47,112 nt of DNA from a virus, in IMG/VR virus record IMGVR_UViG_3300045988_044952; one strand, given 5' to 3'. The notes under the pieces are model-generated. The model was not told the origin of the DNA, made no database searches, and saw only the letters and a program-made list of their open reading frames with translations. The translations under genes were made by a program, and so were the position numbers. Below are positions 1-47,112 of the stretch, one piece after another; within the stretch, counting starts at the first letter, position 1, and every line of letters begins with the position of its first letter.

Positions 1-99
1 ACGGGTAGTGTCACATTAGTACAACACTACCCAAAAACAACACCCGTGATATTCTGGTCATTATCAATTCTAATTTCTTTAATGACAGAACGCCAAAGC
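1..99. repeat. Left copy of the 99-nt exact terminal direct repeat (assembly/circular-permutation overlap)
   Basis: Positions 1-99 are identical base for base to 47014-47112. The repeat covers the 3' end of the integrase gene, so it is redundancy of a circular molecule, not an element boundary. Confidence 0.95.
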
Positions 100-2613: not shown

Positions 2614-3078
2614 TCACCCGGCGTCTGTCCCGGAAACACTGCCAGTGTCAACGGGCGGGCACTGGGCTTCTAAATCTTCTGGATTGTCTGGAACTAACAA
2701 TGCAGGGTCCGCAGTAACAGCAGCAACAAGCCTGCGTTTGAAAAATTCCACGGCAGTTCTTCTAATTTCTGGGTCAAGTTCAAAGTACGTCTTTATGATT
2801 TCCAATTCAAGACCCGTGGCACCTTTAGACTTCACGAAGTCGTCAAGGCTGAATGTGTCCGGCTGTATATACATTTCACCAGAACCAGTGCGCAACCATT
2901 CTTCATTCACATTATAAAGAAGACAGATTGCCTTGATTGTCTGGTCAGTGACGGTTGAGCCGTCCCGTTCCATGTAGCTGACGCCAGTTTGCTTCATTCC
3001 CAGACTTACTGCAAATTCAGTCTGGCTGATGTGCAAAACATCTTTTCTAAAATGCTTCACACGTTCATTGATAGTCAT
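2614..3078 (-). CDS. XRE-family HTH repressor (cI-like)
   Basis: The N-terminal HTH_XRE pattern (ISQTEFAVSLGMKQTGVSYMERDGSTVTDQTIKAICLLYNV) is followed by a C-terminal extension. The gene is divergent from the rightward early operon and shares an operator-rich intergenic region with it. Confidence 0.85.
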   Translation of the reverse strand: MTINERVKHFRKDVLHISQTEFAVSLGMKQTGVSYMERDGSTVTDQTIKAICLLYNVNEEWLRTGSGEMYIQPDTFSLDDFVKSKGATGLELEIIKTYFELDPEIRRTAVEFFKRRLVAAVTADPALLVPDNPEDLEAQCPPVDTGSVSGTDAG

Positions 3079-3706: not shown

Positions 3707-4729
3707 ATGAAAGAATTTGTGAAGAAAAAAGCAGTCATTGTCATGGACAGTGCAGGACTGCCAAACTACATGACCATGTTTTATATGGAGCCGGGGACCT
3801 ATGAGCCGGAGGACGTGCCGGAACTGTTCAAAATCAGAAACAAGATTGTTCCTGCGGTTCTGGTGTCGCAGTTCACCAACACCATGATTAAGGGCGTCCC
3901 GGCGTCCTTACCTTACCAGCAGCCAAAACACACTATCAGTTATGATGAAGCGGCGGCAGCCTGCGGAAGAAAAGGCAAGGGCTGGCACCTTATGACAAAT
4001 ACAGAGTTTGTCTATCTACTGCATGAAGCAGAGGAACTGGGGCACACAATCGGCGGTAATACAAACTACGGCAGCAACTCAAAGAATGAGCAGGAAAGCG
4101 GCGTGAGATACGACAGCGCCGGACGCACGCTGACCGGGTGCGACCCCCTCACATGGTCCCATGACGGAACAGCAGACGGCGTGTTTGGTCTTTGCGGTAA
4201 TTTCTGGGAATGGGTCACGGGCTTGCGTCTGCACAAAGGCGTTGTGGAATACACGCCGAACAACGACGCAGCAGTTGAGGGCTACACAGAGAAGCCAGAC
4301 TGGACCGTTGCAGAGGTGAACGGCAGACCGTTGAAGCTGTACGGCAACAGTGCTGGTGATGTGGTAATGTCCGTTGCGGAAGAAATCGAAGAAAACTGGG
4401 AGGGCTGCCACATGGCAGACTTGCAGCTGGAAGAACTGGAAGAAATGCCAGAAATTGCGTACAAGCTGGGAATTGTACCGCATGACTGGAAGAACGAAAC
4501 AGCCGGAATATGGGCAGACAACGAACTTGAAGAAGCCGTGCCTCTCCGGGGTTCGAGTGTCAACTACTCTTCCGATGGTGGTGCTGGTGCGCTGGGCTTG
4601 GGCTACCCTCGTTCTTTCGTCTGCAACGTTGTGTCGTTCCGTTCCGCTTTATTCTTGGAAAGCTGGGAACTGGTAACTGATTTACTGAAAGCGGGTGCGG
4701 AAGCACACGCAGGAGCGAAGGACGAATGA
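3707..4729 (+). CDS. DGR variable protein 2 (C-type-lectin/FGE-sulfatase-like fold), remote target
   Basis: 340 aa. Full-length paralog of 37433-38485, sharing the motifs RKG.GWHL, GNTN, TW.HDGT and LCGN.WEWV. The C-terminal segment 4535-4649 is a VR copy of the TR at 39085-39199. Confidence 0.9.
   Translation: MKEFVKKKAVIVMDSAGLPNYMTMFYMEPGTYEPEDVPELFKIRNKIVPAVLVSQFTNTMIKGVPASLPYQQPKHTISYDEAAAACGRKGKGWHLMTNTEFVYLLHEAEELGHTIGGNTNYGSNSKNEQESGVRYDSAGRTLTGCDPLTWSHDGTADGVFGLCGNFWEWVTGLRLHKGVVEYTPNNDAAVEGYTEKPDWTVAEVNGRPLKLYGNSAGDVVMSVAEEIEENWEGCHMADLQLEELEEMPEIAYKLGIVPHDWKNETAGIWADNELEEAVPLRGSSVNYSSDGGAGALGLGYPRSFVCNVVSFRSALFLESWELVTDLLKAGAEAHAGAKDE
4535..4649 (+). repeat. DGR variable repeat 2 (VR2)
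   Basis: 115 nt align without gaps to TR 39085-39199. There are 16 differences: 15 at TR adenines and one T-to-G (TR 39109 / VR 4559). Confidence 0.9.
4691..4710 (+). other. GC-rich hairpin 42 nt downstream of VR2 (inside the coding sequence)
   Basis: GCGGGTGC-GGAA-GCACACGC. The stem pairs at 7 of 8 positions and the loop is 4 nt. A counterpart lies at 38512-38533 downstream of VR1. Confidence 0.55.
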
Positions 4730-5243: not shown

Positions 5244-6182
5244 GTGGTGTTCATAAGGGAGAAGAAGATAGACTGCGCAGAGTATAGAGAAGTGGATATA
5301 ATACCACGAACAGAAGCAGCAGAGCAGGCAAGCAGAGGAAAGAGGGGTAAGAAAAGAAAGGTTAATGCCCCAAAGCAAAAGGACTTGAACGACAAGAACG
5401 CTAAACGCTATCTGGTACAGTTGGGAAATGGCAACTTCCACATAGGGGACCTGCATACAAGTTGCACATATAGCGCAGAGAACCTGCCGGGAACGGTAGA
5501 GGAAGCAGAAAACATTGTGACAAACTACCTGCGGAGAATAGCATACCGCAGAAAGAAGCTGGGGTTAGAACCCCTTAAATACATACTGGTAACAGAATAC
5601 AAGTACAGCAAGGATGGTCAGTGTCTTAAAAGAATACATCACCATATCATTATGAACGGCGGTTTAGACCGTGACGACGTGGAATTGATGTGGACGAAAG
5701 ACCGTATCAACTGGAAGAAGACAGACGACCCAGAGTATAGAGCCAGTATAAAGCAGCTGGGCTGGGTTAATGCAGACCGCCTGCAAATGAATGAGAACGG
5801 CATAGAGGGGCTTTGCAAGTATATTGTGAAAGACCCGCAGGGAAAGAAACGCTATTCAAGCAGCAGGAACCTTGACCGCCCGGAAACAACCAGAGAGGAC
5901 GGAGGGGAAAAGCGGCAGCGTGACCAGAACCACTGGAAGTATAGCCGCAATCTGTCAGACCCAACGGAAAAGTGCAATGATTTCAAGTACAGCAAACGCA
6001 AGGTAGAGCAGCTGGCGAAGTCACCAGACGGCGGGCTGGAAGAATTTAAAAAGATTTACAGTGATTATGACATTGTTTCGTGCGAACCCGTGTTTTATGA
6101 ACAAACCGGGTGGCATATTTACTTGAAAATGTGGAAAAAGAAGCCCAAAAAGGGCAGAAAGGAGGATAAAAAGTGCAGTTAG
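5244..6182 (+). CDS. Putative HUH-type replication initiation protein
   Basis: GTG start after AAAAGGAAG. Lys-rich N-terminus, a histidine cluster RIHHHIIMNGG (HUH-like) and a downstream tyrosine motif GLCKYIVKD (Y-x-x-K). First large gene of the early operon. Assigned from motifs only. Confidence 0.4.
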   Translation: MVFIREKKIDCAEYREVDIIPRTEAAEQASRGKRGKKRKVNAPKQKDLNDKNAKRYLVQLGNGNFHIGDLHTSCTYSAENLPGTVEEAENIVTNYLRRIAYRRKKLGLEPLKYILVTEYKYSKDGQCLKRIHHHIIMNGGLDRDDVELMWTKDRINWKKTDDPEYRASIKQLGWVNADRLQMNENGIEGLCKYIVKDPQGKKRYSSSRNLDRPETTREDGGEKRQRDQNHWKYSRNLSDPTEKCNDFKYSKRKVEQLAKSPDGGLEEFKKIYSDYDIVSCEPVFYEQTGWHIYLKMWKKKPKKGRKEDKKCS

Positions 6183-11466: not shown

Positions 11467-11555
11467 TACTTACGGAAGTATACAAAATGCACAAATATAC
11501 TTCCGTAAGATTGTGTAAAATGTCGATTGCTTTTATACTTCCGTAAGTATATAAT
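11467..11555 (+). promoter_or_regulatory. Promoter/operator cassette A (3 copies of the TACTTCCGTAAGTA motif), drives the 11607-parAB operon
   Basis: Motif copies at 11467-11480 (reverse orientation), 11498-11511 and 11536-11549. Promoter: TTGCTT 11527-11532, 17 nt, TATAAT 11550-11555, with the third copy filling the spacer. Confidence 0.65.
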
Positions 11556-11606
11556 AAAGACAGTCAAAGGAACAACAACACAACATAGAAAACGGAGGTA
11601 TAAGCA

Positions 11607-11888: not shown

Positions 11889-11961
11889 GCACGGGTGGCG
11901 CAATGGATAGCGCAGCAGCCCCCGAAGCTGCCGGGTGCGGGTTCAAGTCCCGTCCCGTGCA
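11889..11961 (+). tRNA. tRNA-Arg (anticodon CCG) with C at position 33
   Basis: Manual cloverleaf of 73 nt: acceptor GCACGGG/CCCGTGC, D arm GCGC-AATGGATA-GCGC, anticodon arm GCAGC-CCCCGAA-GCTGC, variable loop CGGGT, T arm GCGGG-TTCAAGT-CCCGT, discriminator A. No encoded CCA. Confidence 0.8.
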
Positions 11962-12012
11962 TTACTGGGAAAAGAAACTATAAACATACCAGATACAAGG
12001 AGGAATACCCCA

Positions 12013-12773
12013 TGAAAACATTATCAATCATTAACTTAAAAGGTGGAGTGGCAAAGACCATTTCCAGCGTTAATATGGCACACATTCTGGCAGCAATACA
12101 CGGCTGCAAAGTCCTGTTAATCGACAACGACAAGCAGGGGAACGCCAGCAAGATTTTGAACCGCCACAGTTACGACCATAAGGGAACCGCAGAGGTTATG
12201 ACCCAGCGTGGCATTGACCCGGCAGCAGTTATCCAGCACACCGATTATGACGGCTTGGACATTATCACAGCAAACATGAACCTGCTGACAGCCAATTTGG
12301 AAGTCATGCTGGACCAGTCCAGACCGCAGCAGACCCGCTTTGTGAAGTTTCTTGACGGGTTACAGCAGGAATATGACTACTGCATTATTGACAACGCCCC
12401 GGACATTAACATTTCCACAATCAATGCGCTGGTGGCTTCACAAGACGTCATGGTGCCTATCACTATTGATGATTTTGCGATTGACGGGTTGGCAGAGCTG
12501 AAAGAACAGATTGACAACACCCGTGAGGATTTGAACCCGCAGCTGCGCTTTTGCGGTTGCTTTGTCACCCAGTACGACAGAACCAATGAAGCGGACACAC
12601 AGGGGGAAGAATTTCTGAAAACACTTGAATACCCGGTTTTCAATACGCATATCAGAAAGACACCGAAAATGAAGCCCAGCACGTTTGAGAGATTGCCAAT
12701 CATTCTGTATTCACCACGTTGCGGAGCAGCAGTAGACTATAAAGCATTGGTGGACGAGTGGTTGAAGATGTGA
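12013..12773 (+). CDS. parA: ParA/Soj-type partition ATPase
   Basis: Start moved to ATG 12013, because the ORF-track extension from 11895 overlaps the tRNA. Deviant Walker A (LKGGVAKTISSVN), then LLIDNDKQGN and a Walker B-like CIIDNAPD. Confidence 0.9.
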
Positions 12774-33620: not shown

Positions 33621-33950
33621 ATGGACGTAATAAGAGGTGACGGCTCATTGCTGAAAGAAATTGACCTTGCGCCAGCAAATGAACATCAAGCCGTAATACA
33701 GAATGTTGCAGTTATTCTGGACACAGTGCAAGGGTCATGCCCCATGTTCCGTGACTTTGGATTGCCGGGCAGCTTATATGGCAGACCGCAGCCAGTAGTT
33801 GAAAGTATACTGGTTGGCTATCTGTATGACCAGATAGAACAATTTGAACCACGAGCGGTGGTTTCAGACATTACATTTGACCACGACGCAGGAACAGGGC
33901 GTACAGTTCCTATAATCTATTTGGAGGAGGTGAGAACAGACAATGAGTGA
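33621..33950 (+). CDS. Baseplate wedge protein (gpW/gp25-like)
   Basis: 109 aa. GSCPMFRDFGLPGSLYGRP...LYDQIEQFEPRAVV. Confidence 0.7.
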   Translation: MDVIRGDGSLLKEIDLAPANEHQAVIQNVAVILDTVQGSCPMFRDFGLPGSLYGRPQPVVESILVGYLYDQIEQFEPRAVVSDITFDHDAGTGRTVPIIYLEEVRTDNE

Positions 33951-35085
33951 CAGAAAATACCCAGACATTGAGTTTGTGGAAACAGACACAGAAACGATAG
34001 AAAGCAATCTGATTGCACTATATGAAAACATGGTGCAGCAGGTGCCGGGGCGTGAGCATTACAAAGTTTACCCGGCGTCACCAGAAAGGCTGTTTATTTC
34101 ATGGGTGGCAAATATCATTGTGCAGCAGCGTGTCATTATCAACGAAACTGCAAAAAAGAACGTGCCACGCTATGCGGACGGTGAATACTTGGACAGTCTG
34201 GCAGAACTGTTCAAGGATTTGGAAAGGCTGCCAGCAAGTCCGGCGTCTGCAATGTTCCGCTTCTACATATCGCAGGCGCAGACACAATCAGTAATTATCC
34301 CGGCGGGCACAAGAATTTCCTTTGACGGCGCAATATTGTTCGAAACGAAAGAAATTCTTGAAATCAAAGCCGGGCAGACATACGGGGACGTTGAGGGCGT
34401 CTGCACAACAGCTGGGACAGTTGGAAACAATCTGGCAGCAGGGCAGGTCAAAGAAATTGTGGACCTATACGACTACTACCAGAAAGCAGAGAATATCACA
34501 GCAACCAGCGGCGGTGCAGAGGAAGAAGACGACGACAGTTATTATGAGCGTATGCGGGAGAGTATGGAGAGTTTCAGCACAGCAGGTCCCGTAAATGGTT
34601 ATATTTACTTCACAAAGTCGGTGTCCCCAGCAGTTGCAGACGTGGCGGTGACAAGCCCGGAACCTTGCGTGGTAGACGTCCGGGTGCTTTTACAGAATGG
34701 AGCGCAGGCAACGGAAGCGGTACTGAAAGAGATTGAAACAGCGTTGAACGCTTCTGACGTCCGACCATTGACAGACACCGTGACCGTATCGGTGCCGGAA
34801 ACAGTGCCGTTTGACATTGATGTGACCTTTTATATTCCACAGCCAGACGCAGCCAGCGCAACGATTATTGAAGCGGCAGCACGGCAGGCGGTAGAAGATT
34901 ACAAGACGTGGCAAACAAGCAAAATGGGGCGGGACATTAACCCGTCATACCTTACGGCACGACTAATGGAAGCAGGCGTGAAACGTGTCGAAGTTCGCAA
35001 GCCTGTTTTCACGGTGGTTGAAGACATAAAGGTTGCAAAGTTGGGAAACACAACGGTTCTGAATGGAGGTATTGAGAATGTCTAA
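33943..35085 (+). CDS. Baseplate J-like protein
   Basis: 380 aa, in the position and with the pattern of the Baseplate_J family (PASPERLFISWVANIIVQQRVIINETAK). Confidence 0.8.
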   Translation: MSDRKYPDIEFVETDTETIESNLIALYENMVQQVPGREHYKVYPASPERLFISWVANIIVQQRVIINETAKKNVPRYADGEYLDSLAELFKDLERLPASPASAMFRFYISQAQTQSVIIPAGTRISFDGAILFETKEILEIKAGQTYGDVEGVCTTAGTVGNNLAAGQVKEIVDLYDYYQKAENITATSGGAEEEDDDSYYERMRESMESFSTAGPVNGYIYFTKSVSPAVADVAVTSPEPCVVDVRVLLQNGAQATEAVLKEIETALNASDVRPLTDTVTVSVPETVPFDIDVTFYIPQPDAASATIIEAAARQAVEDYKTWQTSKMGRDINPSYLTARLMEAGVKRVEVRKPVFTVVEDIKVAKLGNTTVLNGGIENV

Positions 35086-36079
35086 AACAATTTACAATGC
35101 CGACTATTCAGAATGTTTGCCGGAAGCATTAAAGAAAGACCCTAAAATGGTTGCACTGGCAAACGCCACGGCAGCAGCACTTCTGGACACTTCCGGGATA
35201 ATGAACAGCGTTTTGATATATTCCCGGTTTGACGAACTGCCGGAAGAACTGGTGGACATTCTGGCGTATGACCTGCACGTTGACTGGTACGACTATAACT
35301 ACCCACTGGAAGCAAAACGGGACTTAGTGAAAAACAGCGTCAAGGTTCACAAAAAAATGGGGACAAAGTACGCCATTGAAACAGCACTGGGCAGCCTATT
35401 TCCAGAAAGTGAAGTGGAAGAATGGTTCCAGTATGAGGGAGAACCCGGACACTTTCACATTATTTTAGATGTAACAAACCAGAAAATCACGGCAGACTAT
35501 GCAGCTATTATCCGGGCGGTAAAGATGTATAAAAGGCTGTCAGCGCACATGGACGAACTGACATATCAAGGGCAGGTCCACGGGGTAATATACACCCACG
35601 GTGAATATTTCAGATATAAAACACCGCTGACAGGCAGACTGAAAGCCGGAACGCACCCGCAGAGGAACACAAGGGGCAGTATCGGTGCCGGAACATTCGT
35701 TGTGGGGACAGAAGCAGCCGGGTTCATATTCAACGCCCCAGCAGCAGGTACAAAACCGTACAGAAACACGATATTTGCCAATCAGACAACGCATATTGAC
35801 GCAGAAACGGCGTTAAATGCGTTTGGGTATACAAATACACCAGCCGGACGCATAAGAGCCGGAGAAAGCCCGCAGAGGAACACCAGAGGGCAGACGGACG
35901 GGGCAGCGGTCACAATGGGCGACACAGCGGAAGCATACCACTTCACAACCCCAGCAGCCGGGACCGTCCCGGAAAGAAGCACGGTGCAGGGGACAGAGGG
36001 CGGCACCGTGGGCAGCAGTACGCAGGCAATGGGGTATTCATACGGCGTCAAGCCGTGCGGAAGCACCCGGAAGCTATAA
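35078..36079 (+). CDS. Tail protein I-like (baseplate/fibre attachment)
   Basis: Start moved to ATG 35078 (MSKTIY). LPEELVDILAYDLHVDWYD...AKRDLVKNSVKVHKKMGTKYAIE is gpI/DUF2313-like. Confidence 0.7.
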   Translation: MSKTIYNADYSECLPEALKKDPKMVALANATAAALLDTSGIMNSVLIYSRFDELPEELVDILAYDLHVDWYDYNYPLEAKRDLVKNSVKVHKKMGTKYAIETALGSLFPESEVEEWFQYEGEPGHFHIILDVTNQKITADYAAIIRAVKMYKRLSAHMDELTYQGQVHGVIYTHGEYFRYKTPLTGRLKAGTHPQRNTRGSIGAGTFVVGTEAAGFIFNAPAAGTKPYRNTIFANQTTHIDAETALNAFGYTNTPAGRIRAGESPQRNTRGQTDGAAVTMGDTAEAYHFTTPAAGTVPERSTVQGTEGGTVGSSTQAMGYSYGVKPCGSTRKL

Positions 36080-37432: not shown

Positions 37433-38485
37433 ATGTCTAATTTTGATGATTTAAGCATGGCGGTTGCTTCCTTTGGTGGAAACAACGCTGTAAAGTTTGA
37501 TGATTTGGGTATGCCGTCAATTATGGTGGCTATTCCGAAAATGAAGTATTCCGACATTATCACCGGGGGCACACAGGAAACTTTGCCGTGGTGGATTGTG
37601 GACGGCGTAGAGAAAGAAGCTATCTGGGTTTCAAAGTACATCAATACCGTGGTGAATGACCGTGCGTATTCACTGCCAATGAAAGACCCGAAAGCCTATA
37701 TTGATTTTGACACGGCGCTTGCGGTATGCCGCAGAAAAGGTGAGGGCTGGCACCTCAACCAGAACGGCGTCTTTGCTGCAATCAATCTTTGGTGTATGAA
37801 AAACGGCTTCACGCCCCGTGGTAACACAAACTGGGATAGAAGCTATGAAAAAGCCTATGAAAAGGGTATCAATACATACATTGACGGTTCACATGGCGGC
37901 GGAAGAACTGCAACGGGTTCTGGTCCTGTAACTTGGTATCACGACGGCACCCCGGCGGGCATTGCTGACCTTTGCGGCAACTGCTGGGAGTGGGTTTCTG
38001 GTATGCGCTGCGTAAATGGTGAAATCCAGATTATTCCATACGGCAACAGCATGAAGTCTGATTGCAATATGGGCGCAGCAAGTACGGAGTGGAAAGCAAT
38101 CATGCCAAACGGCACGCTTGTTGAACCGGGAACCGCCGGAACCTTAAAGATTGACAGAACCAGTGCTAGTGACGCTACGCTGCGTATCAATACAGCGGTA
38201 ACAACCCAGACAACCGACAGCAACGACACCAGCACACCTTTTAAAGATGTAAAGGCAGTAAGCGGCGTAAGTATTCCGCAGATTTTAATTGCAGCCGGAT
38301 TGTTCCCAGACAGTGCCCAGACAACGCCGGGCAGATTTTGGGCGAGAAATAACGGCGAAAGGCTGCCTATCCGGGGTTCGAGTTTCTACCACACTTCCGG
38401 TGGTGGTGCTGGTGCGCTGGGCTTGTACTACCCTCGTTCTTTCGTCGGCGGCAATGTGTCGTTCCGTTCCGCTTTATATGAGTAA
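37433..38485 (+). CDS. DGR variable protein 1 (C-type-lectin/FGE-sulfatase-like fold), probable receptor-binding tail protein
   Basis: 350 aa, last gene of the tail-fibre module. Motifs RKGEGWHL, GNTNW and LCGNCWEWV. The C-terminal 37 codons (38364-38474) are VR1. Confidence 0.9.
   Translation: MSNFDDLSMAVASFGGNNAVKFDDLGMPSIMVAIPKMKYSDIITGGTQETLPWWIVDGVEKEAIWVSKYINTVVNDRAYSLPMKDPKAYIDFDTALAVCRRKGEGWHLNQNGVFAAINLWCMKNGFTPRGNTNWDRSYEKAYEKGINTYIDGSHGGGRTATGSGPVTWYHDGTPAGIADLCGNCWEWVSGMRCVNGEIQIIPYGNSMKSDCNMGAASTEWKAIMPNGTLVEPGTAGTLKIDRTSASDATLRINTAVTTQTTDSNDTSTPFKDVKAVSGVSIPQILIAAGLFPDSAQTTPGRFWARNNGERLPIRGSSFYHTSGGGAGALGLYYPRSFVGGNVSFRSALYE
38364..38474 (+). repeat. DGR variable repeat 1 (VR1)
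   Basis: 111 nt align without gaps to TR 39089-39199. All 14 differences lie at TR adenines. Confidence 0.9.
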
Positions 38486-38511
38486 CTGGAAACTGGGAAC
38501 TGATACACTGC

Positions 38512-38540
38512 GGGGCTTGCGGCAGCAAGCCCCCTATTTT
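38512..38540 (+). terminator. GC hairpin (4-nt loop) plus T-tract, 38 nt downstream of VR1
   Basis: GGGGCTTGC-GGCA-GCAAGCCCC (38512-38533) followed by CTATTTT. It could serve both as a terminator and as a DGR target-recognition hairpin. Confidence 0.55.
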
Positions 38541-38647
38541 GAAACTAAATAACAAAGGTGGTTTAAGGAGAAATGCCAGAAAATACAACAGAACAGCTTC
38601 CGCAACTGGACAACGTGCGGGATAACGCAACGCAGGAAGATTTCAAA

Positions 38648-39031
38648 ATGAAAAACAAGGTTTATGAAATGCTGCTGTATGCGTACCCGGCGTTAGAACA
38701 GTTTCCGAAAGCTGACAGAAAACTTGCTGACCATATCCGGGAAGCAATATTGCAGGTGTTTGAATTGGTGATACACCTTGAAAACAAACACTATAAGAAA
38801 ACGACGCTGGGAGAACTTGACGACCAGCTGGACGTTTTGCGGCACCTTGTAAGACTGGCGGCAGACCAGCAGTTGCACCCAGACAAGAAACCATGCCTGC
38901 CCATGCGCAAGTATGAAATATTGTCACGAAAGATAAATGAAATAGGGTGCATGATTGGCGGGTATTATAAATCACTGAACGGCAGCACGGCTGGAAACGG
39001 CGGTGCTGCAAATAAAAGCAATGGTAAATAG
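38648..39031 (+). CDS. avd: Accessory variability determinant (Avd-like four-helix-bundle protein)
   Basis: Start moved to ATG 38648 (127 aa). MKNKVYEMLLYAYPALEQFPKADRKLADHIREAILQVFELVIHLENKHYK matches the Avd / 23S-rRNA-IVS-protein family pattern. Sits between the target and the TR. Confidence 0.8.
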   Translation: MKNKVYEMLLYAYPALEQFPKADRKLADHIREAILQVFELVIHLENKHYKKTTLGELDDQLDVLRHLVRLAADQQLHPDKKPCLPMRKYEILSRKINEIGCMIGGYYKSLNGSTAGNGGAANKSNGK

Positions 39032-39084
39032 CAGGGTAACACCTGCTTTTTATATTATGGGAATAAGCCGTTAATAGAGGACTT

Positions 39085-39199
39085 GCCGTGCCTATCCGGG
39101 GTTCGAGTTTCAACAACACTTCCAATGGTGGTGCTGGTGCGCTGAACTTGAACAACCCTCGTTCTAACGTCAACAACAATGTGTCGTTCCGTTCCGCTT
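39085..39199 (+). repeat. DGR template repeat (TR)
   Basis: 115 nt with 23 adenines, 20 of them in 8 AAC and 2 AAT codons in the VR reading frame. Matches VR1 and VR2 except at adenines, plus one T in VR2. The track ORF 39088-39303 is this repeat, not a gene. Confidence 0.9.
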
Positions 39200-39460
39200 C
39201 ACCCCATTTCTGCCAGCAGTCGTGTTCACAAGTGGGCACGTCCAGTGCGTATGGGTTAAAGGGGTTTATTTCCATTCCAAAGGCTGCCAGCCGGGAGCCG
39301 TAGGAAAAATATTGAATTGCCGTAAAGATAGTTAGTAAGCCGCAGGCTGAAAGTCAGAGCTGGAAACACTGGCACTGAATGTATATATCACGTTTGGGCT
39401 GCGGAAGAACCGCAGTTTGATTTGTACGGCGAAATTTTAACAACAGGAGGGAAAAGGGAA

Positions 39461-40675
39461 TTGCACAAAATCAAAAACATTTTCCCTATAATTTATGACT
39501 TTGAAAATCTCTTCAATGCGTATAAAGCCGGGATAAAGTGCAAGAGGTACAGACCAGATGTGATGGCGTACACGGATAAGCTGGAAGAAAACTTGATTGA
39601 ATTACAGAATGAATTTATCTGGCAGACCTACACCGTGGGGCGCTACAACATATTTTATGTTTACGAACCGAAAAAGCGCATGATTATGTCATTGCAATTC
39701 AAAGACCGGGTGGCACAGCACGCTATATATAGCCAGCTGAACCCGTATTTTGAAAAGCAGTTCATACATGACAGCTACGCTTGCAGAGTAGGCAAGGGAA
39801 CACACAAAGCAGTCAACCGCCTGCATAACTGGTTGAAGCAGACAGACCGGAAGCCGCAGCGTTTCTATTATTTGAAACTGGATATTGCAAAGTATTTTTA
39901 CCGGATAGACCATGAAGTATTGATGGACATTTTGCGGAAAAAGATTGCTGATAAAGATTTGTTGCACGTCTTGTCAGTAATTATAAACTGCGAAGACACA
40001 AACTTTGGTCTGCCGCTGGGCGCAGATATTGGCGACGTGGCGTTTGATGAATTGCTGGGAGAAGTTGGGCTGCCTATTGGCAATCTGACTTCACAAATGT
40101 TTGCAAATTTGTATTTGAATGAACTTGACCAGTTCTGCAAACACAAATTGCACCTGCGTTATTACATACGTTACATGGACGACATTATAATTTTGCACCC
40201 AGATAAAAAGTATCTGGAAAAGATAAAGAACAAAATTGCGGACTTTCTGGAAAAAGAACTGCGGTTGCAGCTTAACAAGAAAACCTGCATAAGACCAACC
40301 AGCATGGGCATTGAGTTTGTAGGGTTCCGCATTTGGTCAACGCACATAAAATTGCGCAAGAAGACGGCAAAGAAGCTGAAACGTAGATTGAAATATATGT
40401 TTGCAGCATATCACGCAGGAGAGATTGACAAAGATACACTGGATAGGTCCGTTGCTTCATACCGGGGCATATTACAGCATTTCAACAGCTACGGTATGCG
40501 CCAGAGCCTAAACGAACTGTACTTGCAGGAAATGGGCAAGCCATATCCAGAGCCGGAGAAGAAGCCAGCAAGTAAATGCGGTATATTCTGCGGATATTAC
40601 GGCAGCGCTGATGATTATATCAAGCAGCCAGAAGAAAAGGAGGTGACGGACAGTGGAAGCAATGCAGACGCTTAA
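39461..40675 (+). CDS. DGR reverse transcriptase
   Basis: Contains LPIGNLTSQMFANLYLNELD (the DGR-type I/LGxxxSQ motif) and YIRYMDDIIIL (YxDD). There is no in-frame ATG near the N-terminus, so the start is TTG 39461 (10 nt after AGGAGG) or TTG 39422. Confidence 0.9.
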   Translation: MHKIKNIFPIIYDFENLFNAYKAGIKCKRYRPDVMAYTDKLEENLIELQNEFIWQTYTVGRYNIFYVYEPKKRMIMSLQFKDRVAQHAIYSQLNPYFEKQFIHDSYACRVGKGTHKAVNRLHNWLKQTDRKPQRFYYLKLDIAKYFYRIDHEVLMDILRKKIADKDLLHVLSVIINCEDTNFGLPLGADIGDVAFDELLGEVGLPIGNLTSQMFANLYLNELDQFCKHKLHLRYYIRYMDDIIILHPDKKYLEKIKNKIADFLEKELRLQLNKKTCIRPTSMGIEFVGFRIWSTHIKLRKKTAKKLKRRLKYMFAAYHAGEIDKDTLDRSVASYRGILQHFNSYGMRQSLNELYLQEMGKPYPEPEKKPASKCGIFCGYYGSADDYIKQPEEKEVTDSGSNADA

Positions 40676-44014: not shown

Positions 44015-44299
44015 TTATACTTCTTTTGCTTGCAATTCGTCCCATGTATGCTGGGCAAGTTCTGCCATAGCCTGCGGCGTTTCTTTCACGAACATTGCGA
44101 AAAGGAAAGTCAAGAACTGGCTTTTTGTGTCCTGCCATTCTTCCGCTGTCATATCCGGGTTTTCTTCCAACTTCATTTTCAGAAGCCGTTCTGTTATTTC
44201 CTGCCCAAAAGGAGTGTTAAGCGCTTTGCGTTCTGCCTGCGCTATCTTTTCCACAAATTCATCAAAGCTTCCAGCTATCATCATTTTTGCTTCCATCAT
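44015..44299 (-). CDS. Hypothetical protein
   Basis: 94 aa, helical and acidic. RBS AAAGGTGG. Confidence 0.5.
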   Translation of the reverse strand: MMEAKMMIAGSFDEFVEKIAQAERKALNTPFGQEITERLLKMKLEENPDMTAEEWQDTKSQFLTFLFAMFVKETPQAMAELAQHTWDELQAKEV

Positions 44300-44327
44300 T
44301 CATTCCACCTTTCTTTCCGGCTGGCTG

Positions 44328-44552
44328 CTATGCAATAGCAACCAGTCTTTCTGCACCCATTTTTCTTTCACGAACAACGCCATCTTGATTGCTTTTCAGA
44401 AGACAAGTGATTGTCTTTCCGGTCTTGCTTGGGATAAGGTCAACCACGGTGCTTGTATATCCGTAGTTCCACATGATAACGTCCCCGGTCTTTAATTCTT
44501 TTACTGCCTTTGCTTCCTGCTTGTTATATATTCCTTGAAGTTTTACTGTCAT
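44328..44552 (-). CDS. Hypothetical protein
   Basis: Start moved to ATG 44552 (MTVKLQG..) behind GGAGGGCAAAGCA. The ORF-track N-terminal extension runs through the promoter cassette. Confidence 0.55.
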   Translation of the reverse strand: MTVKLQGIYNKQEAKAVKELKTGDVIMWNYGYTSTVVDLIPSKTGKTITCLLKSNQDGVVRERKMGAERLVAIA

Positions 44553-44592
44553 TGCTTTGCCCTCCGTGTTCTGTATTTCTTTAACTGCCTTT

Positions 44593-44681
44593 ATTATATA
44601 CTTACGGAAGTATAAAAGCAATAGACACAATGCACAAACTTACGGAAGTATAATTGTATAATATGTATACTTCCGTAAGAT
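44593..44681 (-). promoter_or_regulatory. Promoter/operator cassette C (3 motif copies)
   Basis: Minus-strand promoter: TTGCTT (44616-44621), 17 nt, TATAAT (44593-44598). Motif copies at 44599-44612 (in the spacer), 44637-44650 and 44668-44681. Confidence 0.65.
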
Positions 44682-44690
44682 AAAAGCATT

Positions 44691-45271: not shown

Positions 45272-45312
45272 ATCGTTTGCCCTCCGTGTTCTGTATTTCC
45301 TTAACTGTCTTT

Positions 45313-45401
45313 ATTATATACTTACGGAAGTATAAAAGCAATAGACACAATGCACAAATATACTTCCGTAAGATTGTATAAAATGTATACTTCCGTAAGA
45401 A
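45313..45401. promoter_or_regulatory. Divergent promoter/operator cassette D (3 motif copies)
   Basis: Minus-strand promoter: TTGCTT (45336-45341), 17 nt, TATAAT (45313-45318). Motif copies at 45319-45332, 45361-45374 and 45388-45401. A possible plus-strand extended -10, TGATATACT, lies near 45411-45419. Confidence 0.6.
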
Positions 45402-45446
45402 AAGAAAGTGTGATATACTAATTAAAAATCACAGGAGGTGCAGAAA

Positions 45447-46281: not shown

Positions 46282-46293
46282 TTAAAAAAACTA

Positions 46294-46322
46294 TTGATAA
46301 TATACTTCCGTAAGTATATAAT
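46294..46322 (+). promoter_or_regulatory. Promoter/operator cassette E
   Basis: TTGATA (46294-46299), 17 nt, TATAAT (46317-46322). The motif copy at 46303-46316 fills the spacer. Confidence 0.7.
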
Positions 46323-46388
46323 AAAGGCAGTTAAAGCAATAGTGCTTAACACAAAAAGTCAATACAATTCAATACGGAGGAAATCAAA

Positions 46389-46991: not shown

Positions 46992-47037
46992 TTGTACTAA
47001 CTTAACACTGCCCACGGGTAGTGTCACATTAGTACAA
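46992..47037. other. Candidate attP: 46-bp imperfect dyad next to the serine integrase stop codon
   Basis: TTGTACTAACTTAACACTGCCCA | CGGGTAGTGTCACATTAGTACAA. The arms match in 18 of 23 positions as inverted repeats, with perfect 9-bp outer arms TTGTACTAA/TTAGTACAA. The right arm (= positions 2-24) ends 2 nt from the int stop codon (27-29). Confidence 0.4.
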
Positions 47038-47112
47038 CACTACCCAAAAACAACACCCGTGATATTCTGGTCATTATCAATTCTAATTTCTTTAATGACA
47101 GAACGCCAAAGC
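47014..47112. repeat. Right copy of the 99-nt exact terminal direct repeat
   Basis: Identical to 1-99. It contains a second partial copy of the integrase C-terminal coding sequence. Confidence 0.95.

What the first reader, a model, noticed from the sequence alone, without database searches (positions are those of the whole stretch)
37433..40675. Complete DGR (target - avd - TR - RT) between the tail-fibre module and the lysis cassette
TR 39089-39199 and VR1 38364-38474 align without gaps over 111 nt. They show 14 differences, and every one falls on a TR adenine (AAC to TAC, CAC, GGC or TTC; AAT to GGT). None falls on C, G or T. Of the 23 TR adenines, 20 sit in 8 AAC and 2 AAT codons in the VR reading frame, the codon design that avoids stop codons under adenine mutagenesis. 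The cassette also has an Avd-like 127-aa ORF and an RT carrying IGNLTSQ and YMDD. My own codon arithmetic gives 15 possible residues at each of 10 AAY codons, times 4 each for ATC, AGT and ACT. That puts the theoretical repertoire at order 10^13 variants. DGRs are a known system class. The interest here is that this one is intact, phage-borne and apparently serves two loci (next finding).
Basis: partly seen in the sequence, partly recalled or inferred. Interest (0 to 1): 0.7.

Follow-up and report, generated by a model that had tools for sequence, protein, structure and literature searches.

The report
Intact two-target phage diversity-generating retroelement
This is a complete diversity-generating retroelement in a temperate gut phage: a reverse transcriptase copies a 111-base template with errors only at adenines and overwrites the tips of two phage proteins; it is a well-known kind of system, and close relatives with the same layout are already on record.

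Summary
TR 39089-39199 and VR1 38364-38474 align without gaps, and all 14 differences fall on TR adenines (chance about 4e-12). A second copy, VR2 4539-4649, has 15 adenine differences plus one other.

- Avd passes NCBI's DGR-Avd cut-off.
- The RT carries IGNLTSQ and YMDD. Its best solved relative is Bordetella bRT (E 1e-50, against 1e-19 for group II intron RTs).
- Both targets are homologues of the TaqVP C-type-lectin variable protein.
- Both VRs, but not TR, are followed by a CTG array and a GC-rich hairpin with a GRNA loop.
- Covariation supports a structured RNA around TR that matches the element order of the Bordetella DGR RNA.

In 27 distinct VR copies from gut metagenomes, 339 differences lie at adenine sites and 7 elsewhere, while clean TR copies are almost invariant. 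This holds even where the rest of the gene is 99.4-99.9% identical.

The phage is collinear with Enterocloster phage Saumur. Faecalibacterium phage Lagaffe has the same module order, including the remote second target. Two-target DGRs are already published.

Verdict: real, intact, recently active in the lineage, and a new member of a known kind. One minor correction: Avd is probably 152 aa, not 127.

The parts
37433..38485 (+). Target gene 1, a 350-aa variable protein. It has the FGE-type C-type-lectin fold by homology and is probably the receptor-binding protein.
   Evidence: PDB 5vf4 (TaqVP) matches at E 8.1e-62 over residues 5-337. The family is phrog_2889, E 8e-122. Homologues include Vibrio phage VHML ORF35 and proteins annotated 'antireceptor' (run with paralogue 2). 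The gene follows baseplate J (33943-35085) and the P2 gpI-like gene (35063-36079).
38364..38474 (+). VR1, the variable repeat that encodes the last 37 codons of target 1.
   Evidence: It aligns to TR over 111 nt without gaps, with 14 differences, all at TR adenines. It is hypervariable at adenine sites across metagenome copies.
38486..38510 (+). Array of four CTG triplets at a 7-8 nt period, 3' of VR1. This is the candidate VR-specific recognition sequence (IMH equivalent).
   Evidence: The array is shared by VR1 and VR2 and absent after TR. Of 63 distinct VR flanks in this RT family, 97% have at least 3 CTG in the first 45 nt, against a mean of 0.76 after TR and 0.53 in shuffles. Its function is inferred, not shown.
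38512..38533 (+). GC-rich hairpin or cruciform, GGGGCTTGC-GGCA-GCAAGCCCC, followed by a T-run. This is the target-site hairpin and probably also the terminator of target gene 1.
   Evidence: The stem has 9 bp and the 4-nt loop fits GRNA. A sister lineage shows a compensatory G:C to A:T change (GGGGCTTAC...GTAAGCCCC). It matches the element shown to be needed for homing in BPP-1: 7-10 bp GC-rich stem with a GRNA loop (PMC3240598).
   Evidence: NCBIfam NF033474 DivGenRetAVD scores 93.8 bits (cut-off 80). Pfam bAvd scores 76 bits. phrog_3206 'Avd protein of DGR' matches at 5e-30. The N-terminal extension is conserved in relatives.
39030..39047 (+). Hairpin plus T-run between avd and TR. It looks like a terminator, and its role is unknown (attenuator or RNA structural element).
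   Evidence: Found by the terminator scan. It is conserved in 11 relatives with compensatory changes.
39058..39069 (+). Upstream arm (TGGGAATAAGCC) of a 12-bp long-range RNA duplex that brackets TR.
   Evidence: It pairs with 39263-39274. Cells are 97.7% paired, and 5 of 12 pairs show changes on both sides across 11 relatives. It is the analogue of the avd:Sp 'cPRT Stop' duplex of BPP-1 (bioRxiv 10.1101/2023.10.23.563531).
39089..39199 (+). TR, the invariant template repeat (23 adenines).
   Evidence: Ten clean copies were recovered: the window's own and nine from other contigs, eight of them identical to the window's and one with a single G-to-A change.
39200..39460 (+). Structured spacer RNA between TR and RT. 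It contains a stem-loop at 39221-39240 (8 bp, CAAG loop), the downstream arm of the bracketing duplex at 39263-39274, a stem-loop at 39275-39306 followed by an A-run, and a long branched stem at 39318-39431.
   Evidence: Of 49 predicted pairs, 95.4% of cells are paired, against 27-46% when partners are slid. Twenty pairs change on both sides, and 0 of 500 shuffles reach the observed covariation score. The order of elements matches the BPP-1 DGR RNA.
39461..40675 (+). DGR reverse transcriptase (404 aa from TTG 39461; the ORF is open from 39422).
   Evidence: Pfam RVT_1 matches at 3e-23. PDB 8ub7 bRT matches at E 1.3e-50. phrog_1423 matches at 7e-139. The motifs IGNLTSQ and YMDD are present, and the residues equivalent to bRT K29, F66, R74, I76, I181, G182 and Q187 are conserved in the alignment.
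3707..4729 (+). Remote target gene 2, a 340-aa paralogue of target 1 in the early region between the repressor and the replication initiator.
   Evidence: It is 36% identical to target 1 (E 5e-46). PDB 5vf4 matches at E 1.8e-24. The family is phrog_2889. Its neighbours are an XRE-like repressor at 2614-3078 (-) and a replication initiator at 5244-6182.
4539..4649 (+). VR2, the second variable repeat served by the same TR.
   Evidence: It has 15 differences at TR adenines plus one T-to-G at 4559. It is hypervariable at adenine sites in 14 distinct metagenome copies.
4663..4710 (+). CTG array (4663-4687) and hairpin GCGGGTGC-GGAA-GCACACGC (4691-4710) 3' of VR2. Here both lie inside the coding sequence.
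   Evidence: The hairpin has a 7-bp stem with one G-A mismatch and a GRNA loop. The Saumur equivalent is a perfect 8-bp stem with a GAGA loop.

Best explanation
This is a complete, canonical diversity-generating retroelement (DGR) carried by a temperate tailed phage of a gut Lachnospiraceae-type host.

How it works, by analogy with the Bordetella BPP-1 DGR (inferred):
1. An RNA spanning roughly 39058-39431 is transcribed. It holds the upstream arm, TR and the structured spacer.
2. Avd (38573-39031) and the RT (39461-40675) bind the spacer structures.
3. A 12-bp duplex between 39058-39069 and 39263-39274 brackets the TR, and cDNA synthesis is primed in cis from the spacer near the 3' end of TR.
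4. The RT copies C, G and U faithfully but inserts any nucleotide opposite adenine.
5. The mutagenised cDNA replaces the homologous 111-bp VR at the 3' end of two paralogous C-type-lectin-fold genes: 37433-38485, next to the cassette, and 3707-4729, 34 kb away.

The TR is spared and the VRs are recognised because only the VRs are followed by a CTG array and a GC-rich GRNA-loop hairpin.

The result is up to about 3.7e13 protein variants of the ligand-binding face of each target. Target 1 most probably adapts host-receptor binding. The role of target 2 is unknown.

Shown here: the anatomy, the homologies, the RNA covariation, and the adenine-restricted variation across natural copies. Inferred: priming, homing, target discrimination and the biological role.
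For: TR/VR anatomy:
- VR1 has 14 of 14 differences on adenines, and VR2 has 15 of 16. The chance values are about 4e-12 and 5e-12.
- The AAY codon design leaves 20 of 23 adenines in AAC or AAT codons, so no stop codon can arise.

Proteins:
- Avd scores above NCBI's equivalog cut-off.
- The RT is closest to bRT (E 1.3e-50 against 1e-19 for group II). It has IGNLTSQ and YMDD, and it conserves the equivalents of bRT R74 and I181, the residues that promote adenine mutagenesis.
- tblastn finds its relatives in classic DGR phages: Lagaffe, BalMu-1, VP585, Bordetella phages and ANMV-1.
- Of 80 genomic loci with RT relatives, 69 have an adenine-biased TR/VR pair in the same order.
- Both targets are TaqVP homologues.

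Cis elements:
- GRNA-loop hairpins follow VR1 and VR2 but not TR, and one shows a compensatory change. This matches PMC3240598.
- RNA structure around TR is supported by covariation. Its element order is the same as in the BPP-1 ribonucleoprotein.

Activity in the lineage:
- Across 27 distinct VRs from human-gut viral and metagenome contigs there are 339 differences at adenine sites and 7 at the other 88 positions. All 23 adenine columns vary. Of adenine cells, 55% are substituted, close to the 52% misincorporation measured for bRT-Avd in vitro (PMC7826257).
- Of the ten clean TR copies, nine are identical and one has a single change.
- Contigs whose target gene is 99.4-99.9% identical upstream of the VR still differ at 12-17 of 111 VR positions.
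- In strains only 78-88% identical upstream, the non-adenine VR positions stay identical to TR.
Against: There are no reads, so heterogeneity within one population and current activity of this particular genome are not shown.

The cross-sample comparison shows past homing in the lineage, not its rate.

No promoter-like site was found for the TR RNA, and a terminator-like hairpin sits between avd and TR (39030-39047). How the template RNA is made is therefore unclear.

The single-sequence fold of the region is no more stable than shuffles (z = -0.55), so the structure rests on covariation in 11-12 fairly close relatives.

The VR2 hairpin has an internal mismatch.

The pairing of ACCCC (39201-39205) with a downstream G-run, taken as the template:primer analogue, is invariant and so has no covariation support.

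That target 1 is a virion receptor-binding protein rests on gene position and on annotations of distant homologues only.
Confidence: 0.95

Rival explanations
1. The cassette is a relic. It diversified the VRs in the past but is now inactive in this genome, for example through loss of the TR RNA promoter or subtle defects in RT or Avd.
For: No reads are available to show current heterogeneity. No promoter-like site was found near TR, and a terminator-like hairpin lies between avd and TR. VR2 carries one non-adenine substitution at 4559 that is private to this genome.
Against: All ORFs are intact with their catalytic and fidelity-related residues. The TR is identical to that of eight other contigs. 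Near-identical genomes (99.4-99.9% in the target gene) carry different VRs, so homing is very recent on the scale of point mutation. The hairpin between avd and TR is conserved with covariation in all relatives, so it is a feature of the system rather than a lesion.
Confidence: 0.04
2. The RT belongs to another retroelement or defence system (group II intron, retron, Drt/UG), and the three repeats are ordinary paralogous C-termini kept similar by gene conversion.
For: NCBIfam's best-scoring model for the RT is the group II intron maturase (127 bits). Records of related phages label the homologue 'retron-type' or 'group II intron RT'.
Against: All those models score far below their cut-offs: 127 against 300, 54.7 against 235, and 63 against 200. 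bRT scores 100 bits better than any group II RT in the PDB. Rfam finds no intron or retron RNA in the window. Gene conversion does not explain differences confined to the adenines of a non-coding third copy, nor the 339:7 split across natural copies.
Confidence: 0.005
3. The VR polymorphism across contigs is an assembly or sequencing artefact of a three-copy repeat, not biological variation.
For: Three metagenome contigs (L022, L035, L036) are chimeric across the repeat, for example a TR 5' flank joined to a VR2 3' flank. Several of the contigs have low coverage.
Against: Chimeras between TR, VR1 and VR2 of one genome could only reshuffle existing bases. The 27 distinct VRs (chimeric contigs excluded) show many different bases at each adenine site and almost none elsewhere. 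The pattern is seen in independent samples and in the isolate-derived Saumur genome.
Confidence: 0.005

Closest known systems
Bordetella phage BPP-1 DGR (mtd-avd-TR-brt), the prototype
   Same: Gene order is the same: target, avd, TR, RT. The VR lies at the 3' end of a C-type-lectin-fold target. The codon design is AAY. The RT carries [I/V/L]GxxxSQ and YMDD. A GC-rich hairpin with a GRNA loop follows VR but not TR. The order of RNA elements around TR is the same: upstream arm, TR, stem-loop just after TR, downstream arm of the bracketing duplex, a short stem-loop followed by adenosines, then a long stem.
   Different: RT identity is modest (176 bits). The target is a single-domain TaqVP-like protein rather than trimeric Mtd with its prism and sandwich domains. 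The TR is 111 nt rather than 134 nt. The upstream arm lies in a 57-nt non-coding gap after a terminator-like hairpin, not inside avd. TR and VR are identical through their A-free 3' ends, so discrimination must lie downstream, in a periodic CTG array that BPP-1 lacks in this form. There are two targets, one of them 34 kb away.
Faecalibacterium phage FP_Lagaffe / Lagaffe_CP DGR (NC_047911)
   Same: The module order is the same: baseplate J, baseplate I, three small ORFs, FGE/CLec target, Avd, TR, RT, two small ORFs, endolysin, holin, lysogeny genes, then a second paralogous target at the head of the early replication/recombination genes. Both VRs are adenine-biased (13 and 11 adenine differences, 0 others), and both are followed by a CTG array. 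Its two VRs are published (PMC11792537).
   Different: RT identity is only about 50% and target identity about 32%. The host family differs (Oscillospiraceae). The integrase is IS30-type rather than a large serine recombinase. No obvious hairpin follows the Lagaffe VR2.
Clostridium (Enterocloster) phage Saumur, ON453901, an inducible prophage of E. clostridioformis YL32
   Same: This is the closest sequenced phage. About 69% of the window aligns collinearly at about 70% nucleotide identity. The RT is 73% identical and target 2 is 63% identical at protein level. It has the same TR length and frame, the same two targets (each VR with 14 adenine differences), the same hairpins with GRNA loops, and the same spacer RNA structure.
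   Different: It is a different species-level phage. Its record annotates Avd and RT but not TR or the VRs, and it calls two spurious ORFs across the TR and spacer. The papers I checked that mention Saumur do not mention its DGR.
Thermus aquaticus prophage DGR variable protein TaqVP (PDB 5vf4)
   Same: Target 1 aligns over its full length at E 8e-62, including the C-terminal variable segment (LPIRG...PR). TaqVP is a monomeric, single-domain FGE-type C-type-lectin fold.
   Different: The host phylum is different and thermophilic. The ligand and virion role of TaqVP are also unknown, so the homology fixes the fold but not the function.

Membership tests
Diversity-generating retroelement (DGR) | A template repeat and a variable repeat that differ (almost) only at template adenines. 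| tested here: met
   VR1 has 14 of 14 differences on adenines and VR2 has 15 of 16, over 111 ungapped nt. P is about 4e-12.
Diversity-generating retroelement (DGR) | A reverse transcriptase of the DGR clade, with the signature [I/V/L]GxxxSQ in place of QGxxxSP, and a catalytic YxDD. | tested here: met
   IGNLTSQ and YMDD are present, and the motif definition comes from PMC7826257. The best PDB hit is bRT at E 1.3e-50, against 1e-19 for group II. Of 80 loci with relatives, 69 carry adenine-biased TR/VR pairs. No formal phylogeny with reference RTs was built.
Diversity-generating retroelement (DGR) | The VR lies inside a protein-coding target gene, usually at its C-terminus in a C-type-lectin fold, with AAY codons in TR. 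| tested here: met
   VR1 encodes the last 37 codons of ORF 37433-38485, and VR2 lies near the 3' end of 3707-4729. Both proteins are TaqVP homologues. The TR has 8 AAC and 2 AAT codons. The fold is inferred from sequence homology to a solved structure, and no model was built.
Diversity-generating retroelement (DGR) | An accessory variability determinant (Avd) next to TR and RT. This is present in most DGRs but not all. | tested here: met
   NF033474 scores 93.8 bits against a cut-off of 80. Pfam PF22296 scores 76 bits against a cut-off of 40.
Diversity-generating retroelement (DGR) | Target-site elements that distinguish VR from TR: an IMH at the VR 3' end and a GC-rich inverted repeat with a GRNA loop downstream. 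| tested here: met
   Hairpins at 38512-38533 (loop GGCA) and 4691-4710 (loop GGAA) follow the VRs, and none follows TR. The criteria come from PMC3240598. The exact IMH is not defined. The repeats are identical through their 3' ends, so the discriminating sequence is inferred to be the CTG array downstream. This situation is foreseen in PMC5758913.
Diversity-generating retroelement (DGR) | [quoted passage not shown] | tested here: met
   The 12-bp duplex 39058-39069 with 39263-39274 has 5 covarying pairs. The stem-loop 39221-39240 has 6 of 7 pairs covarying. The criteria come from bioRxiv 10.1101/2023.10.23.563531.
Diversity-generating retroelement (DGR) | Demonstrated adenine mutagenesis and homing (activity). 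| tested here: inconclusive
   At lineage level the pattern is clear. There are 339 adenine-site differences against 7 others in 27 distinct VRs, the TR is almost invariant, and VRs differ between genomes 99.4-99.9% identical in the rest of the gene. Activity of this genome itself needs reads or an experiment, which these tools cannot provide.
Group II intron (RT/maturase) | A maturase-type RT reaching the family threshold, embedded in a ribozyme with domains I-VI. | tested here: not met
   TIGR04416 scores 127 bits against a cut-off of 300. Rfam finds no group II intron RNA in the window at gathering thresholds. The RT has SQ rather than SP in motif 4.
Retron or defence-associated RTs (Drt2/3/5, TIR-RT) | An RT reaching the family model threshold, with the associated msr/msd RNA or effector genes. 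| tested here: not met
   Retron St85 scores 54.7 against 235, Drt3a 63 against 200, Drt2 46 against 390, and Drt5 21 against 550. Rfam finds no retron RNA.

The most novel reading that the evidence does not exclude
In this clade of Bacillota-phage DGRs, the element that marks a locus as a homing target may not be a BPP-1-type IMH inside the repeat. It may instead be a bipartite tag just 3' of the repeat: 3-5 CTG triplets at a 7-8 nt period, followed at 32-44 nt by a GRNA-loop hairpin. The tag can sit in non-coding DNA (VR1) or inside a reading frame (VR2). That would explain how one TR can serve a second, early-expressed paralogue 34 kb away, whose product need not be a virion protein. I did not find the CTG array described in the DGR papers I read. 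The literature check was not exhaustive.
Probability: 0.35. Interest if true: 0.5.

Novelty: new member of a known kind. Interest (0 to 1): 0.3.

Why it matters
As a DGR it adds little that is new. DGRs are very common in gut phages, about 13% of DGRs have two targets (PMC5758913), and the same module, remote second target included, is already on record in phage Lagaffe.

Its practical value is as a clean, fully parsed example with a cultivable close relative: phage Saumur in Enterocloster clostridioformis YL32, a member of the OMM12 mouse consortium. Three open questions about DGRs could be tested there:
- how the VR is told apart from the TR when the repeats are identical through their 3' ends;
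- what a second, early-region variable protein does;
- when in the phage life cycle homing occurs.

The covariation-supported RNA structure and the CTG-array-plus-hairpin signature could also sharpen DGR callers for Bacillota phages.

Tried and rejected
- Pfam and NCBIfam gave no hit for either target protein. The fold assignment came from the PDB sequence search instead.
- An exact-pattern scan of genome contigs with the 25-nt VR/TR core found nothing. The host inference therefore rests on RT relatives in Lachnospiraceae genomes and on phage Saumur.
- My first TR/VR caller had a clipping bug and returned nothing. It was fixed.
- Two metagenome contigs seemed to show a mutagenised TR (L035 and L036, with 4 and 8 adenine changes). 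I rejected this reading because their 3' flanks are VR2-type. These contigs, and L022, are chimeric joints across the repeat, most likely misassemblies at low coverage. They were excluded from the final counts.
- The single-sequence fold of 39025-39465 is not more stable than shuffles (z = -0.55), so I relied on covariation.
- The sigma-70-type promoter scan found no more sites than expected in shuffled sequence (5 against 6.5 expected) and none near TR.
- A resemblance between spacer 39360-39381 (GCTGGAAACACTGGCACTGAAT) and the VR1 CTG array was considered as a possible RNA-target pairing or mimic. I dropped it because that segment is an insertion absent from all relatives.
- Rfam has no family matching the DGR RNA. 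Its only hit in the window is a tRNA.
- I did not run structure prediction, the large protein-database searches or a reference RT phylogeny. The existing evidence already decided the question.

Full report
**1. The observation**

I re-read the two stretches and compared them base by base. TR 39089-39199 and VR1 38364-38474 align over 111 nt without gaps. They differ at 14 positions, and every one is an adenine in TR. TR has 23 A, 31 C, 25 G and 32 T. The chance that 14 of 14 differences land on the 23 adenines is 3.9e-12.

In the frame of ORF 37433-38485 the TR reads as 8 AAC, 2 AAT and single ATC, AGT and ACT codons. This accounts for all 23 adenines. It gives 15^10 x 4^3 = 3.7e13 possible peptides with no stop codon.

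I scanned both strands of the window, allowing up to 12 mismatches at non-adenine TR positions. This found exactly one more copy, VR2 4539-4649, with 15 adenine differences and one T-to-G at 4559. The repeat finder gives the same three-copy family.

**2. The genes**

- **Avd.** The ORF 38573-39031 matches Pfam bAvd (76 bits) and NCBI's equivalog model for DGR Avd (93.8 bits, cut-off 80).
  - In relatives the 25 residues upstream are conserved (for example MTEEQKEQLPELDPVRDNTTPEDFK in Saumur). The internal Met is a Thr in five of the closest relatives, including Saumur.
  - So 152 aa from ATG 38573 is the better call.
- **RT.** The ORF is open from 39422, but the start is probably TTG 39461 behind AGGAGGG. 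It has RVT_1, IGNLTSQ and YMDD.
  - Its best match among solved structures is Bordetella bRT (8ub7, E 1.3e-50, 176 bits). The best group II intron RT reaches 1e-19.
  - The NCBIfam models for group II maturase, retron and Drt RTs all fall far below their cut-offs.
  - In the bRT alignment, the residues that contact the template and the incoming nucleotide are conserved (K29, F66, R74, I76, I181, G182, Q187). These include R74 and I181, which promote adenine misincorporation (PMC7826257).
- **Target 1.** The protein from 37433-38485 aligns over its whole length with TaqVP (PDB 5vf4, E 8e-62). TaqVP is the variable protein of a Thermus aquaticus prophage DGR, a monomeric FGE-type C-type-lectin fold.
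- **Target 2.** The protein from 3707-4729 is a paralogue of target 1: 36% identity (E 5e-46) and 5vf4 at E 2e-24.

**3. The genome and its relatives**

The window carries a 99-nt terminal direct repeat, so it is a complete circular assembly of about 47.0 kb. It encodes:
- a large serine recombinase, an XRE-type repressor and a replication initiator;
- ParA/ParB-like proteins, terminase, portal and major capsid protein;
- a contractile-tail baseplate (gpD-like hub, baseplate J, P2 gpI);
- then the DGR, then two small ORFs, an endolysin and a holin.

No separate long tail-fibre gene is evident.

The nearest sequenced phage is Clostridium phage Saumur, an inducible prophage of Enterocloster clostridioformis YL32. 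It is collinear with the window over 69% of the window's length at about 70% nucleotide identity. RT relatives at up to 90% identity sit in Lachnospiraceae genomes.

**4. The proposed population test, run across samples**

I scanned public viral and metagenome contigs for the 25-nt adenine-poor core of the repeat. I then compared every full-length copy with the TR.

- After removing three chimeric contigs, 27 distinct VRs remain, 13 of type VR1 and 14 of type VR2. They come from human-gut samples.
- They carry 339 differences at the 23 adenine positions and 7 at the other 88 positions.
- Every adenine column varies, and 55% of adenine cells are substituted. That is close to the 52% misincorporation measured for bRT-Avd in vitro (PMC7826257).
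- Apart from the window's own TR, nine clean TR copies were recovered. Eight are identical to it and one has a single G-to-A change.
- Contigs whose target gene is 99.4-99.9% identical to the window upstream of the VR still differ at 12-17 of the 111 VR positions.
- In strains only 78-88% identical upstream, the non-adenine VR positions remain identical to TR.

This is the footprint of repeated, recent homing from a conserved template. It does not show that this particular genome is active now.

**5. The RT family behaves as a DGR family**

Of 80 genomic loci encoding relatives of this RT (44-90% identity, mostly Lachnospiraceae and other Bacillota), 69 have an adenine-biased TR/VR pair in a fixed layout. 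The VR ends 435-644 nt upstream of the TR, and the TR ends 150-300 nt upstream of the RT. tblastn against phage records finds the RT's relatives in classic DGR phages: Lagaffe, BalMu-1, VP585, Bordetella phages and ANMV-1. A search with target 2 finds VHML ORF35 and proteins annotated 'antireceptor'.

**6. How the VRs are distinguished from the TR**

TR and the VRs are identical through their adenine-free last 20 nt and diverge immediately after. The discriminating element must therefore lie downstream, a case foreseen by Wu et al. (PMC5758913).

Both VRs are followed by four CTG triplets at a 7-8 nt period (38486-38510 and 4663-4687). A GC-rich hairpin with a 4-nt loop then follows:
- 38512-38533, GGGGCTTGC-GGCA-GCAAGCCCC;
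- 4691-4710, GCGGGTGC-GGAA-GCACACGC.

The TR has neither element.

The loops fit the GRNA consensus. The stems fit the 7-10 bp GC-rich stems that Guo et al. showed to be needed for efficient homing in BPP-1 (PMC3240598). A sister lineage carries a compensatory G:C to A:T change in the VR1 stem. Saumur has different stems with GGTA and GAGA loops.

At VR1 these elements are non-coding, and the hairpin also looks like the gene's terminator. At VR2 they lie inside the reading frame. This argues for constraint at the DNA level.

**7. The template RNA**

I aligned the stretch from the avd stop codon to the RT start in 11-12 relatives. This gives a consensus structure with strong covariation.

- In the spacer, 49 pairs have 95.4% of cells paired, against 27-46% when partners are slid. 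Twenty pairs change on both sides, and 0 of 500 shuffles reach the observed score.
- Including the upstream flank reveals a 12-bp long-range duplex between 39058-39069 (TGGGAATAAGCC) and 39263-39274 (GGTTTATTTCCA). It brackets the TR and has compensatory changes at five pairs. Saumur, for example, has TGGGGAAGAACC with GGTTCTTCTCCA.

The order of elements is:
1. upstream arm;
2. TR;
3. stem-loop with a tetraloop just after TR (39221-39240, 6 of 7 pairs covarying);
4. a G-rich strand that can pair with ACCCC at the TR 3' edge;
5. downstream arm;
6. short stem-loop followed by adenosines (39275-39311);
7. long branched stem (39318-39431).

This is the order seen in the cryo-EM structure of the BPP-1 bRT-Avd-RNA particle: Avd-binding stem-loop, template:primer duplex, avd:Sp 'cPRT Stop' duplex, stem-loop plus A-minor adenosines, then the bRT-binding stem. 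The same authors predicted it for 207 of 278 Avd-type DGRs (bioRxiv 10.1101/2023.10.23.563531).

Two differences from BPP-1 stand out. The upstream arm lies in a 57-nt non-coding gap rather than inside avd. It is also preceded by a conserved terminator-like hairpin (39030-39047). The priming nucleotide and the transcript ends are not determined.

**8. The second target**

VR2 sits in a gene that follows two small ORFs downstream of the divergently transcribed repressor. It precedes the replication initiator, so it lies in the early region.

The same arrangement is present in Saumur. There VR2 lies at 44254-44364 of ON453901, with 14 adenine differences, in a 326-aa protein next to the replication initiator.

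It is also present in Faecalibacterium phage Lagaffe. There gp26-Avd-TR-RT lie between the baseplate and lysis genes, and a second FGE-family target, gp40, heads the exonuclease/Gam/ERF genes. Both Lagaffe VRs are adenine-biased.

Two VRs in Lagaffe_CP, Lelie, CP11 and Roseburia phage Shimadzu are already published, with the role of the second protein left open (PMC11792537). About 13% of DGRs have two targets (PMC5758913).

**9. Rivals**

- A relic DGR cannot be excluded for this one genome, but it is unlikely given intact genes and very recent VR turnover in near-identical genomes.
- A non-DGR RT with coincidental repeats is excluded by the scores and by the adenine restriction.
- Assembly artefact explains three chimeric contigs (L022, L035, L036). 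It cannot create new bases at adenine sites only.

**10. Verdict**

This is a canonical, complete, two-target DGR, a new member of a known kind. Its layout is already represented by Lagaffe and, unannotated, by Saumur.

Interest is modest (0.3). Its value lies in the clean anatomy and in a cultivable relative for testing target recognition and the role of the early-region target. The periodic CTG array downstream of VRs is the one feature I did not find described in the papers I read.

Noticed in passing
window 38486-38510 and 4663-4687; also L001, L118, L119 and L038-L117 just 3' of each VR: A periodic array of 3-5 CTG triplets, 7-8 nt apart, follows almost every VR in this RT family. Of 63 distinct flanks, 97% have at least 3 CTG in the first 45 nt (mean 3.75, against 0.76 after TR and 0.53 in shuffles). 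A GRNA-loop hairpin follows at 32-44 nt. Only the CTG triplets and their spacing are conserved; the bases between them vary. BPP-1 has only two CTG, 10 nt apart, in its IMH. I did not find the array described in the DGR papers I read.
   Followed up: partly
L035 (OLJF01002796.1), L036 (ENA-OROZ01003465), L022 (OIXH01008065.1): These metagenome contigs join flanks of different repeat copies across the 111-nt repeat. Examples are a TR 5' flank with a VR2 3' flank, and a VR2 5' flank with a VR1 3' flank. At first sight this looks like a mutagenised TR. At low coverage they are most likely misassemblies. Real recombinants that delete the 12.5 kb between TR and VR2 are not excluded.
   Followed up: partly
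window 39030-39047: A terminator-like hairpin plus T-run lies between the avd stop codon and the TR. It is conserved with compensatory changes in all 11 relatives. It could attenuate read-through into TR-RT or be part of the DGR RNA. No promoter-like site lies between it and the TR.
   Followed up: partly
window 3707-4729; ON453901 44213-45193; NC_047911 31798-33060: The second DGR target keeps the same position in three phages of two host families. It sits in the early region, after the repressor or integrase module and just before the replication or recombination genes. This suggests early or lysogenic expression rather than late structural expression. Its function is unknown.
   Followed up: partly
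window 4559: This is the only non-adenine difference between VR2 and TR (T to G, Phe to Val). It is private to this genome among 30 VR copies, so it is a point mutation, a rare non-adenine RT error, or a sequencing error.
   Followed up: yes
window 39088-39303; L001 7606-7845 and 7852-7950: An ORF of 71 aa runs across the TR in the VR reading frame and is surely not a gene. The Saumur record annotates two such 'hypothetical proteins' (WAK79544.1, WAK79543.1) over its TR and spacer RNA. It does not annotate TR, VR1 or VR2.
   Followed up: yes
window 1-99 and 47014-47112: A perfect 99-nt direct repeat sits at the two ends of the window. This is the usual sign of a circular or circularly assembled complete genome, with a unique length of about 47,013 bp.
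   Followed up: no
window 11469-11572, 44556-44683, 45276-45403, 46283-46341: A repeated intergenic element of about 50-128 nt (78-93% identity) occurs in both orientations. It contains TATACTTCCGTAAGTATATAAT-like sequence and lies next to ribosome-binding sites of small genes. It is possibly a repeated promoter or operator region.
   Followed up: no
window 11889-11961: A tRNA-Arg (anticodon CCG) gene (Rfam 63 bits, also called by ARAGORN) lies just upstream of, and overlapping the first in-frame start of, the ParA-like ORF 11895-12773.
   Followed up: no
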